Shown: positions 12,700 through 14,382, counted from the first letter of the stretch. The stretch is DNA of 64,000 bases from Promethearchaeota archaeon (GCA_016839585.1 JAEOTZ010000072.1:32001-96000); one strand, 5' to 3'. A program made the numbers and translations. The notes: generated from the sequence alone by a model not told the origin.

Positions 12700-13924
12700 T
12701 TAGAAATAGTGCACAGTAATATAATCAGGAACTACTACTTCCTCTTCTTTATTTTTGCAAGCAACAAAGTTTATTTTCATGTTTATTGATAGTGTGAGAA
12801 GACGTTTGGTTAAAATACCATCTATTATCAAATATTGGGTATCTTTATAATTTCTGATTTTTTCAAAAAGTTCTCCAACCATTATATCAAATAGCTTCTC
12901 CATTGCTTTATTAAAACCTATACTATGACCAGGTTCAATATCTTTAATACCCTCAATGATCGCAGATTCATTTTTAACCTTAAGATTTTTTAAAACATTA
13001 TATAGTCCCTCTTCTTTACCTGCATATTCTAATTCAACTTTTTCGATATCCTTTATTTCTTTAAACAAATTAGCGTTTTTCTTGTTTTGTAGTGCTTTTA
13101 TCAATTGCTTTCTAGTTAATTCCTCAACTTCATATCCCTCAGGAGCTCTAGCAATGAAATCAATTTTAGCAACTTGTAAAAGTTCCTTTAAAATGATCAT
13201 TCCACCCCTATCTCCATCCATAAACGCTGTTACCGAACTCTTATTTTTTGTTAATTTTATTACTGGCTTAGGCACTTGGGTTCCTTGGACTGCAATTGTA
13301 TTTTTAACACCAATCCTTAATAAGTTTAAAACATCTGCACGACCTTCCACAATTATTAAATCAGGATTAATATCTACTTCAGGTCCAGCAGGTAATTTTT
13401 CTTTACCCCAAGAAAGAATTTCTCCAAGTTTAATATCTGTGTCAATTTGTTCTTCTATTTCACTTGGTTCTAAAGATTTTTGATCCCACTCTTTTAAAAG
13501 TTCAGTAGCACGTTTAATTATTTTTTTTCGTTTTGTTTCGCGAACATCACGAATCTCTAAGAGTTTCATATCTGCTTCGCAAGGTCCAACCCTAGATACT
13601 GTTTCAACAGTCGCAGCTAATAGTGCTGTTTCTTTACGCGTGAGGCTACTAGGTATTTTAATGATCCCTTCGGAAATTCCTTCCTTGGATTCATTATCAA
13701 CCTCGATTCTTCCAATTCGTCCAGATTTTTGTAAATCCCTTAAATCCAGATCCAAAAGAAGACCTTCGGTTTAGCCGATTAAGCCGAATTGGCTTCAAGT
13801 TTCTTTATCTCTGGCCAAAAATAGCCCCCACAATATCGCTTTGTTCTACAACACCTTTAATTTTGAATTTTGTGGTGATAATATATTTTGTGGTAAATTC
13901 ATTTTGACTGGTAATCTTGATCAC
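12700..13924 (-). CDS. dnaG: Archaeal DnaG (TOPRIM, exosome-associated); join(13924..13811,13770..12700), ~394 aa after removing a 40-nt insertion
   Basis: Exon 1 TKYII...GVVEQSDIVGAIFGQ joins exon 2 TEGLLLDLDLRDLQKSGRIGRIEV; TOPRIM VEGRADV and DGDRGG intact. Confidence 0.92.
13771..13810 (-). other. Candidate 40-nt bulge-helix-bulge (BHB/BHL) mRNA intron in dnaG
   Basis: AGATAAAGAAACTTGAAGCCAATTCGGCTTAATCGGCTAA splits Q|T; helix GGCC/GGCU, bulges AG^A and AA^A, intron stem GAU/AUC. Confidence 0.8.
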
Positions 13925-14187
13925 TTCCTTAATTTTTATTTTTCATAATGAAATCTAAGCTCATATTCAAAATCTATGAGAGTAAAATGATATATTGTAT
14001 GAGTTTGATTTTTTGAATTTTTTAAATAATTTTAATATATAATTTAAAATCATCATTGCGATGATTATATTTTAATAGAATTATTCAATCAATTTATTTT
14101 TTGTGAATCTAAAGAATTTCTCAAAAAGTAAAAAATAATATCCTCATGAGATATTTATTTTTTAGATAAGAATTATAATCTATATCA

Positions 14188-14382
14188 ATGAGTTATTGGA
14201 ACAGAATTTTAATAGAAAAGCTTTTTTCACAATCCAAAAAAAATTATGTGAAATATAAATTAAATACAGATATAGGCAGATTTTATTTTTATTTTAAAAA
14301 AGAAAAAGGATCTGAATCTAAAGTTACAGGCAAATTGATTTTCTATCCTGATCCAAAACAACAGTTTCCTAATAAACCTTAG
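14188..14382 (+). CDS. Small hypothetical protein
   Basis: 64-aa ATG ORF in otherwise free space; no recognised motif. Confidence 0.4.
   Translation: MSYWNRILIEKLFSQSKKNYVKYKLNTDIGRFYFYFKKEKGSESKVTGKLIFYPDPKQQFPNKP

What the first reader, a model, noticed from the sequence alone, without database searches (positions are those of the whole stretch)
13771..13810. Candidate bulge-helix-bulge intron inside the protein-coding gene dnaG
Seen on the minus strand: ...GCT ATT TTT GGC CAG | AGATAAAGAAACTTGAAGCCAATTCGGCTTAATCGGCTAA | ACC GAA GGT CTT CTT... Removing the 40 nt restores the conserved archaeal DnaG motif GAIFGQTEGLL. Unspliced, the frame hits TAA after one codon and is also shifted, while both flanks are otherwise intact. 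The RNA can fold with a 4-bp central helix GGCC/GGCU, two 3-nt bulges (AGA, AAA), an intron-side stem GAU/AUC and an inner hairpin AAGCC-AAUUC-GGCUU. The exon-side helix is weak next to the bulge, giving a relaxed HBh'/BHL form. Cutting after the second nucleotide of each bulge, as tRNA splicing endonuclease EndA does, gives exactly the junctions implied by the protein. Established: the well-known archaeal mRNA intron of this kind is in crenarchaeal cbf5, and archaeal DnaG is an exosome-associated RNA-binding protein. Inference: an Asgard archaeon splices an mRNA with EndA/RtcB, possibly coupling exosome function to tRNA-splicing capacity. I do not recall a dnaG intron being described.
Basis: partly seen in the sequence, partly recalled or inferred. 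Interest (0 to 1): 0.93.

Follow-up and report, generated by a model that had tools for sequence, protein, structure and literature searches.

The report
tRNA-type intron splitting Asgard dnaG
The only dnaG gene of this Asgard (Promethearchaeota) archaeon is broken by a 40-base insert shaped like the introns that archaea cut out of tRNAs; 55 related genomes keep such an insert at the same spot with matching base changes, so the mRNA almost certainly has to be cut and rejoined, something the papers I could search report for the coding part of only one other archaeal gene (cbf5).

Summary
On the minus strand, dnaG exon 1 (13924-13811, ...VGAIFGQ) and exon 2 (13770-12700, TEGLL...) are separated by 40 nt (13810-13771). 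These 40 nt put stops in both exon frames.

The two exons match the NCBIfam DnaG profile at adjoining positions, 1-26 and 27-268. The genome (99% complete) holds no second dnaG.

Inserts of 29-43 nt sit at the same site in 53 of 154 genomes of the order and in 2 genomes of another class. The reversed-pattern control found none.

In all 47 distinct sequences the four exon bases GGNC pair 4/4 with the four intron bases that lie 2 nt before the 3' junction. The wobble base of the Gly codon covaries with its intron partner (C-G, A-U, U-G, G-C, G-U).

This is the relaxed bulge-helix-bulge form HBh'. The genome encodes a two-subunit EndA with the broad-specificity loop, and RtcB. Exon 1 is under the same purifying selection with or without the insert.

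I could obtain no RNA data, so splicing itself is inferred (confidence 0.87). A second, related intron site lies 22 nt upstream in four genomes.

This scan has already noted dnaG introns on other Asgard DNA. I found no published report.

The parts
13811..13924 (-). dnaG exon 1 (38 codons if it starts at GTG 13924; ends ...VGAIFGQ). The start codon is uncertain.
   Evidence: Translation. Residues 13-38 match NF003108 (DNA primase DnaG) profile positions 1-26. pN/pS is 0.164 across 53 intron-bearing relatives.
13771..13810 (-). 40-nt bulge-helix-bulge type (HBh') intron
   Evidence: Stops lie in both exon frames (AGA TAA at the 5' end, TAA at the 3' end). Homologous inserts occur at the same site in 55 genomes.
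12700..13770 (-). dnaG exon 2 (356 codons plus stop; TEGLLLDLDL..., Toprim domain)
   Evidence: Translation. NF003108 scores 353.7 bits (cut-off 300), with residues 1-241 on profile positions 27-268. Toprim domains found.
13813..13816 (-). 5' strand of the central 4-bp helix H (exon bases GGCC: Gly codon plus the first base of the Gln codon)
   Evidence: Pairs 4/4 with 13776-13773. The third base covaries with its partner in relatives (CG 30, AU 7, UG 6, GC 2, GU 2).
13773..13776 (-). 3' strand of helix H (intron bases GGCU)
13810..13812 (-). Bulge 1 (A G | A). The predicted 5' cut lies between 13811 and 13810.
   Evidence: The geometry is fixed in all 47 distinct sequences. The rule that EndA cuts between the 2nd and 3rd bulge residue comes from PMC2738675.
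13770..13772 (-). Bulge or loop 2 (A A | A). The predicted 3' cut lies between 13771 and 13770. No solid exon-exon helix closes it.
   Evidence: RNAalifold offers only a distant 3-bp exon-exon pairing.
13807..13809 (-). 5' strand of the intron-side helix h' (GAU)
   Evidence: Pairs with AUC at 13779-13777. All 3 pairs show changes on both sides in relatives (GC/CG, AU/CG, UA/GC/CG); 93.6% of cells pair.
13777..13779 (-). 3' strand of h' (AUC)
13781..13795 (-). Inner hairpin AAGCC-AAUUC-GGCUU
   Evidence: helix 3 pairs in 89% of cells, with two pairs changed on both sides.
13919..13928 (-). Shine-Dalgarno-like GGAAGTGATC that overlaps the GTG counted here as the start
   Evidence: Read directly. 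Relatives keep GGAAGTGAT or GGAGTTGAT here, followed 5 nt later by an in-frame ATT or ATA. The true start may be ATT 13915.

Best explanation
The 40 nt are a tRNA-type (bulge-helix-bulge) intron in the dnaG pre-mRNA. In the transcript, exon bases GGCC pair with intron bases GGCU. This leaves AG|A as a 3-nt bulge closed by the intron helix GAU/AUC, and AA|A as a single-stranded stretch. That is the relaxed HBh' form. The host's two-subunit splicing endonuclease EndA cuts between the 2nd and 3rd residue on each side. RtcB then joins the exons, and probably circularises the intron. The result is an mRNA for a colinear DnaG of about 394 aa. Unspliced RNA can give only a peptide of about 40 aa. Shown here: the anatomy, the covariation, selection on both exons, a single gene copy, and presence of the enzymes. 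Inferred: cleavage, ligation, and any regulatory use. The intron was probably present in the ancestor of the family and has been lost precisely several times.
For: (1) The exons are colinear with the DnaG profile: exon 1 covers NF003108 positions 1-26 and exon 2 covers 27-268.
(2) Same-site inserts of 29-43 nt occur in 53 of 154 genomes of the order, plus 2 genomes of another class. The reversed-pattern control found 0 in 400 genomes.
(3) Helix H pairs 4/4 in all 47 distinct sequences at a fixed distance of 2 nt from both junctions. The Gly wobble base covaries with the intron base (CG 30, AU 7, UG 6, GC 2, GU 2). All three h' pairs show changes on both sides. No shuffle of 500 reaches the observed values, and slid controls pair at most 49% against 94.5%. 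RNAalifold finds H unaided.
(4) Exon 1 has pN/pS 0.164 in 53 intron-bearing genes against 0.178 in 21 intron-less genes. Both exons are intact wherever the contig covers them.
(5) In 29 of 54 intron-bearing genes there is no ATG, GTG or TTG in the first 30 codons of exon 2, so its conserved N-terminus can be translated only when joined to exon 1.
(6) There is one dnaG in a 99.24% complete genome.
(7) The EndA alpha subunit has the Y/H/K triad and equivalents of A. pernix loop residues K44 and R46. A second paralogue lacks the His and fits a beta subunit. RtcB is present. PMC3241643 and PMC5829648 show that this loop confers cleavage of relaxed motifs and that Asgard archaea have this enzyme type.
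(8) The tRNA-Tyr intron of the same genome has the same local geometry: GGCU GU|A GAU...GUC AGCC GA|A.
Against: A scan of metagenome contigs for the joined form found nothing, which is uninformative. In this species the motif is weak. There is no solid exon-exon helix h, h' is only 3 bp, and an internal loop follows before the hairpin. The BHB-constrained fold of a 100-nt context is -16.5 kcal/mol against -23.2 for the free fold, and the local fold is no more stable than shuffles (z = -0.53). The cleavage specificity of an Asgard EndA has not been measured.
Confidence: 0.87

Rival explanations
1. Programmed translational bypassing, as in T4 gene 60 or yeast mitochondrial byps. The ribosome would take off at the Gln codon, skip the 40 nt, and land before ACC.
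For: A stop follows the Gln codon within 0-2 codons in nearly all copies. The last intron codon, UAA, differs from CAA only at its first base, so a Gln tRNA could in principle re-pair through a G-U wobble (read from the sequence). The gap length is in the range known for bypass elements (my own knowledge).
Against: The covarying helix pairs the Gly codon and the first Gln base. Those bases sit in the ribosomal E and P sites at take-off, so the helix cannot exist during a hop. Its conservation argues for a structure that acts before translation. The 4-bp helix, 3-nt bulge and cut after the 2nd residue on both sides are the specific EndA signature, and the bypass model does not predict them. The landing triplet varies (UAA, UAG, UAU, CAA, UUA). 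Bypassing is not known in archaea (my own knowledge).
Confidence: 0.04
2. A broken or split gene. Either dnaG is decaying here, or it is expressed as two separate polypeptides: a 40-aa peptide plus an N-terminally truncated DnaG.
For: In this species a TTG lies at codon 6 of exon 2 (ORF 12700-13755), so a truncated product is conceivable.
Against: The insert is kept in 55 species. Both exons are intact and under strong purifying selection (exon 1 pN/pS 0.164; first 50 codons of exon 2, 0.244). In 29 of 54 genes there is no start codon in the first 30 codons of exon 2. No second dnaG exists. Decay would not preserve a covarying helix.
Confidence: 0.04
3. An assembly or sequencing artefact, or an insertion present only in the DNA of this MAG.
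For: The genome is a metagenome-assembled genome in 91 contigs.
Against: The same 40 nt, with 0-1 changes, occur in three other species-level genomes. Their nearest named records come from different studies and assemblers. Diverged versions occur in 50 further genomes.
Confidence: 0.01

Closest known systems
BHB intron in the cbf5 (pseudouridine synthase) pre-mRNA of Crenarchaeota (Watanabe 2002; Yoshinari 2006; Yokobori 2009, PMC2738675)
   Same: Both are short introns inside a coding sequence. Both mostly take the relaxed (unconventional) BHB form, with cuts predicted between the 2nd and 3rd bulge residue. Both hosts have a hetero-oligomeric EndA. Both show a patchy distribution explained by gain and loss.
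   Different: The host gene differs (dnaG, not cbf5), and so does the phylum (Asgard/Promethearchaeota, not Thermoproteota). Here the intron lies between codons, 38 codons from the start. Splicing is confirmed by cDNA for cbf5 but not for this gene. A second, related insertion site exists 22 nt away.
BHB intron in the 5' UTR of Haloferax volcanii HVO_1309 (PMC7714728)
   Same: It is an mRNA processed by the tRNA splicing endonuclease at a BHB. That paper states that cbf5 was the only other mRNA case reported.
   Different: That intron lies in an untranslated leader and does not interrupt the reading frame. It was shown by circRNA-seq and in vitro cleavage.
Non-canonical tRNA introns of Asgard archaea and Thermoproteales (PMC5829648; preprint 10.64898/2026.10.13.758758)
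   Same: The same motif and presumably the same enzymes apply. This genome's tRNA genes are also heavily interrupted: ARAGORN finds only 29 tRNAs, 18 of them with intron calls. The tRNA-Tyr intron shares the local geometry.
   Different: The substrate here is an mRNA, with no tRNA body to help recognition. The preprint reports no mRNA or dnaG intron (terms mRNA 0, DnaG 0).
IRE1/RtcB splicing of HAC1/XBP1 mRNA in eukaryotes
   Same: A protein endonuclease plus an RtcB-type ligase removes a short intron from an mRNA and changes the reading frame (my own knowledge; mentioned in PMC13149111).
   Different: The nuclease is different (IRE1 kinase-RNase), the substrate is a pair of stem-loops, and splicing is regulated by stress. 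No regulation is shown here.

Membership tests
Archaeal EndA-dependent (bulge-helix-bulge) intron | Central helix of exactly 4 bp between the two cleavage regions | tested here: met
   GGCC/GGCU in the window. It pairs 4/4 in all 62 loci and 47 distinct sequences, with 100% of cells paired.
Archaeal EndA-dependent (bulge-helix-bulge) intron | 3-nt bulges on opposite strands, each cut between its 2nd and 3rd residue, giving the junction that the product requires | tested here: met
   Cuts at AG|A and AA|A give ...GGC CAG|ACC GAA..., which is GAIFGQTEGLL. The exons adjoin at NF003108 profile positions 26 and 27. The cutting rule is quoted from PMC2738675.
Archaeal EndA-dependent (bulge-helix-bulge) intron | Intron-side helix h' closing bulge 1 | tested here: met
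   GAU/AUC, followed by a hairpin. 93.6% of cells pair and all 3 pairs show changes on both sides. The helix is longer and continuous in genera g16 and g23 and in family f3.
Canonical hBHBh' motif (strict form cut by alpha4 and alpha'2 EndA) | Exon-exon helix h of at least 2 bp directly closing bulge 2 | tested here: not met
   U-C and U-C mismatches lie next to the bulge. RNAalifold offers only a distant 3-bp GCN/GGN pairing beyond a 6x5 internal loop. I therefore file it as the relaxed HBh'/BHL form, not the canonical form.
Archaeal EndA-dependent (bulge-helix-bulge) intron | Host enzyme able to cut relaxed motifs: (alpha-beta)2 EndA with the Crenarchaea-specific (L1) loop Lys/Arg | tested here: met
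   There are two paralogues. Alpha aligns with A. pernix 3p1z_B through the KPR motif (K44, R46) and the Y/H/K triad. Beta lacks the His. The loop's function is described in PMC3241643.
Archaeal EndA-dependent (bulge-helix-bulge) intron | RtcB-type ligase present | tested here: met
   PF01139 matches at 560.7 bits, G000 C7:4311-5618.
Archaeal EndA-dependent (bulge-helix-bulge) intron | Spliced RNA and excised (circular) intron observed | not testable with these tools
The metagenome-contig scan for the joined form gave 0 hits and may omit this genome.
Archaeal DnaG (NF003108, DNA primase DnaG; Toprim) | Score over the curated cut-off and a colinear match | tested here: met
   Exon 2 alone scores 353.7 bits against a cut-off of 300. 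Exon 1 adds profile positions 1-26. Toprim domains are present.
Programmed translational bypass (T4 gene 60 type) | Matched take-off and landing codons | tested here: not met
   Take-off is CAA or CAG. The triplet before exon 2 is UAA in most copies, and also UAG, UAU, CAA or UUA.
Self-splicing group I / group II intron or any Rfam family | Match to a ribozyme or RNA family model | tested here: not met
   No Rfam match at E <= 1 in 13400-14200. At 40 nt the insert is far below ribozyme size.

The most novel reading that the evidence does not exclude
These mini-introns may be mobile as well as inherited. Four genomes in three genera carry a 30-31-nt intron 22 nt upstream, inside the Ile codon of EKSDI|VGAIFGQ, in place of the site-1 intron. 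Its sequence looks like the site-1 intron with paired substitutions: GAU/AUC becomes AAU/AUU, GCC/GGC becomes GUC/GAC, and GGCU becomes GUCU to fit the new exon bases AGAU. Two copies in different genera are 28/30 identical, while synonymous sites in the flanking exons are only 52-62% identical. This would mean that BHB introns relocate and spread between lineages in Asgard archaea. Possible routes are reverse splicing by EndA/RtcB followed by reverse transcription, or short-patch gene conversion. That would be a prokaryotic counterpart of intron gain and sliding.
Probability: 0.25. Interest if true: 0.85.

Novelty: new member of a known kind. Interest (0 to 1): 0.72.

Why it matters
According to the papers I could search, endonuclease-spliced introns inside archaeal coding sequences are documented for one gene only, cbf5 in Crenarchaeota. 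Here a universally conserved archaeal gene (its product is an exosome-associated protein and primase homologue, from my own knowledge) depends on such an intron in dozens of species of the archaeal phylum closest to eukaryotes. The evidence includes textbook covariation, repeated precise loss, and a related second insertion site. If RNA data confirm it, mRNA splicing by the tRNA machinery is a regular part of Asgard gene expression. Gene callers will then mis-annotate such genes as truncated or as pseudogenes. The gain, loss and movement of introns in protein genes would also become testable in the prokaryotic relatives of eukaryotes.

Tried and rejected

Scan of metagenome contigs for the exact joined junction of this species: 0 hits. 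This is uninformative, because records of or near this genome may be left out and the collection is mostly DNA.

Single-sequence folding: the free MFE fold is not the BHB in any of 7 copies tested, and the window copy gives z = -0.53. Thermodynamics alone would not have found this intron.

blastn of the intron against the whole genome: no other copy, so it is not a sequence repeat.

My own naive scan of the 64-kb window for further BHB-plus-split-ORF candidates: it recovers the dnaG intron but gives over 100 AT-rich false positives. I abandoned it.

BHB geometry check on ARAGORN intron calls with free shifts: too permissive to serve as a statistic. Only tRNA-Tyr and tRNA-Ser(GCU) are convincing comparators.

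The strict flank pattern over 400 genomes of the phylum found only one further family, f33. It would miss introns at other sites or with other flanking codons, so it does not show absence elsewhere.

Rejected explanations: a frameshift (stops in both frames), a self-splicing intron (size; no Rfam match), and an artefact (55 assemblies).

Full report
**Observation**

Searches show the following on the minus strand. An open frame runs from GTG 13924 to CAG 13811 (VIKITSQNEFTTKYIITTKFKIKGVVEQSDIVGAIFGQ). Then come 40 nt (13810-13771). Then a 356-codon frame starts at ACC 13770 (TEGLLLDLDLRDLQKSGRIGR...) and ends at 12700.

Read through, the first frame stops at AGA TAA. The second frame is closed by the TAA that ends the insert. 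No frameshift can therefore link the two frames.

Against NCBIfam, exon 1 residues 13-38 match the archaeal 'DNA primase DnaG' equivalog NF003108 at profile positions 1-26. Exon 2 residues 1-241 match positions 27-268 at 353.7 bits, above the cut-off of 300. Removing exactly these 40 nt therefore restores a colinear DnaG. Exon 2 carries the Toprim domain.

The whole genome is 3.45 Mb in 91 contigs and 99.24% complete. It has a single dnaG.

**Structure in this copy**

- Helix H: GGCC (13816-13813) pairs with GGCU (13776-13773).
- Bulge 1: A13812 G13811 | A13810.
- Helix h': GAU (13809-13807) pairs with AUC (13779-13777).
- Further in: an internal loop, then the hairpin AAGCC-AAUUC-GGCUU (13795-13781).
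- Bulge 2: A13772 A13771 | A13770.

Cutting between the 2nd and 3rd residue of each bulge is the rule quoted for the cbf5 introns in PMC2738675. It gives the junction the protein requires.

No real exon-exon helix closes the second bulge. RNAalifold offers only a distant 3-bp pairing.

Taken alone, this copy is not convincing thermodynamically. The free fold differs from the BHB, and z is -0.53 against shuffles.

**Comparative evidence**

I scanned for the conserved exon flanks separated by 1-150 nt.

- Order: 53 of 154 genomes have an insert at exactly this site. By family this is f1 51/134 plus the window's own genome, f3 1/1, f2 0/14 and f4 0/4. Nine of 24 genera are represented.
- Phylum sample of 400 genomes: 2 of 2 genomes of one further family, f33, also have it.
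- The reversed-pattern control matched nowhere.

Insert lengths range from 29 to 43 nt. Four copies have lengths that are multiples of three, and these contain in-frame stops.

In all 62 loci, which give 47 distinct sequences, the four exon bases GGNC pair 4/4 with the four intron bases lying 2 nt before the 3' junction.

On the alignment A1:
- Helix H is paired in 100% of cells.
- Its third pair, the wobble base of the Gly codon against an intron base, occurs as C-G 30, A-U 7, U-G 6, G-C 2 and G-U 2.
- All three h' pairs show changes on both sides.
- No shuffle of 500 reaches any of the five measures.
- Sliding the 3' partner by 1-3 columns drops pairing from 94.5% to 12-49%.

RNAalifold, given only the alignment, predicts the H helix.

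**Is the gene alive?**

Every intron-bearing genome keeps an intact exon 1, and exon 2 is complete wherever the contig covers it.

| Group | Region | pS | pN | pN/pS |
|---|---|---|---|---|
| 53 intron-bearing genes | last 29 codons of exon 1 | 0.70 | 0.115 | 0.164 |
| 21 intron-less genes | last 29 codons of exon 1 | 0.778 | 0.138 | 0.178 |

In 29 of 54 intron-bearing genes no ATG, GTG or TTG occurs in the first 30 codons of exon 2. The conserved TEGLLLDLDLRDLQ... segment can therefore be translated only when joined to exon 1.

Together these results exclude decay, a two-polypeptide arrangement and an assembly artefact. Three other species-level genomes share the 40-nt version with 0-1 changes, and their named counterparts come from different studies.

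**Machinery**

The genome encodes two EndA paralogues.
- The 201-aa protein aligns with the catalytic subunit of Aeropyrum pernix EndA (3p1z_B, E = 7e-36). The alignment covers the Tyr/His/Lys triad and the KPR motif, which holds K44 and R46 of the Crenarchaea-specific loop.
- The 200-aa paralogue has Phe at the position of the His, as expected of a structural beta subunit.

PMC3241643 shows that this loop and its Lys confer cleavage of relaxed and mislocated motifs. PMC5829648 reports that Asgard archaea have the (alpha-beta)2 enzyme with this loop.

RtcB is present. ARAGORN finds only 29 tRNAs, 18 of them with intron calls. This fits the heavy interruption of Asgard tRNA genes described in preprint 10.64898/2026.10.13.758758. 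The tRNA-Tyr intron has the same local layout as the dnaG intron.

**Rival: translational bypass**

A stop soon after the Gln codon, and a final UAA that could wobble-pair with a Gln tRNA, make a hop conceivable. However, the covarying helix uses the Gly codon and the first Gln base. Those bases sit in the E and P sites at take-off, so the helix must act before translation. The twofold-symmetric 4-bp, 3-nt geometry is what EndA reads. I give bypass 0.04.

**History**

I built a FastTree tree of 130 DnaG exon-2 proteins, rooted on families f2 and f4.

- All early-branching genera of the family (g12, g17, g14, g20, g23, g16) carry the site-1 intron. Families f3 and f33 carry it too.
- Intron-less genes are nested in later clades.
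- The site-1 state needs at least 10 changes on the tree, at least 6 of them forced by well-supported branches.
- Between genera, the first 6 intron bases are 85-93% identical in most pairs of family-f1 genera. The last 24 are mostly 45-80% identical. Synonymous sites are about 45% identical.

The simplest reading is one old intron with repeated precise loss, as was proposed for cbf5. This is a gene tree, not a species tree, so the counts are approximate.

**A second site**

Four genomes that lack the site-1 intron have a 30-31-nt insert 22 nt upstream, splitting the Ile codon of EKSDI|VGAIFGQ. They are G088 in genus g1, G072 in g21, and G107 and G145 in g22.

The geometry is the same. Exon AGAT pairs with GUUU, GUCU or AUCU; one copy, CGAT/GUCU, pairs 3/4. 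The intron ends in AA|. These copies sit on four separate tips of the tree.

Their 3' part resembles the site-1 intron with paired substitutions (my comparison of the sequences printed). The g1 and g22 copies are 28/30 identical, while third codon positions around them are 52-62% identical. This suggests relocation and perhaps lateral spread. I could not settle the question.

**Identity of the organism and prior knowledge**

The nearest relatives in the genome collection are titled Promethearchaeota or Promethearchaeia MAGs, so 'Asgard' stands.

Full-text searches found no paper combining DnaG, BHB and intron and nothing on Asgard mRNA introns. PMC7714728 (2020) states that, besides its Haloferax 5' UTR case, cbf5 is the only BHB intron reported in an archaeal mRNA. 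PMC2738675 notes that introns in other protein genes had only been predicted.

This scan's own notes, which are AI leads and not evidence, already report dnaG introns in other Asgard genomes, two of them with RNA support. They also report mini-introns in other genes of this genome. I verified the same-site inserts in relatives independently, but not the RNA claims.

**Verdict**

This is a real, conserved, relaxed-BHB intron in the dnaG mRNA. It is very probably removed by EndA and RtcB (0.87). It is a new member of a known but very sparsely documented kind. Splicing itself remains to be shown for this gene copy.

Noticed in passing
L104 (G088), L116 (G072), L125 (G107), L140 (G145); corresponds to window ~13832/13833 on the minus strand: A second dnaG intron site lies 22 nt upstream of the first, inside the Ile codon of EKSDI|VGAIFGQ. 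The inserts are 30-31 nt, have the same BHB geometry, and resemble the site-1 intron in sequence. They occur in 4 of 154 genomes on four separate tips of the DnaG tree. The g1 and g22 copies are 28/30 identical although flanking synonymous sites are only 52-62% identical.
   Followed up: partly
window 13913-13930 (minus strand): The GTG taken as the dnaG start lies inside GGAAGTGATC, a near-perfect Shine-Dalgarno sequence. An in-frame ATT (13915-13913) follows 5 nt later, and relatives keep ATT or ATA there. Translation may therefore start at a non-AUG Ile codon.
   Followed up: partly
G129: C40:2670-3707 and C91:4451-5491 (L134, L069): One MAG of genus g22 holds two dnaG genes, one intact and one with the site-1 intron. 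They sit in different clades of the tree. This is probably a mixed bin, but it could be a presence/absence polymorphism.
   Followed up: no
whole genome G000 (/data/genome.fa): ARAGORN finds only 29 tRNA genes in a 99% complete genome, and 18 of them have intron calls. Many tRNA genes are evidently too interrupted to be detected.
   Followed up: no
L006/L062 (G019), L059 (G098), L079 (G144), L083 (G150), L057 (G094), L040 (G050): Variants of the site-1 intron. Four copies have lengths that are multiples of 3 (39, 39, 39 and 30 nt) yet keep an in-frame stop. Three copies end in UAU, UAG or UUA in place of UAA, so the terminal stop in the exon-2 frame is common but not obligatory.
   Followed up: partly
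window 13781-13776 and 13785-13782 (minus strand): The 3' arm of the inner hairpin (GGCU) repeats the H-helix 3' strand (GGCU), and the 5' arm (AGCC) resembles exon GGCC. Exon GGCC could therefore pair with either copy. Whether this alternative pairing matters for cleavage or for the intron's origin is unknown.
   Followed up: no
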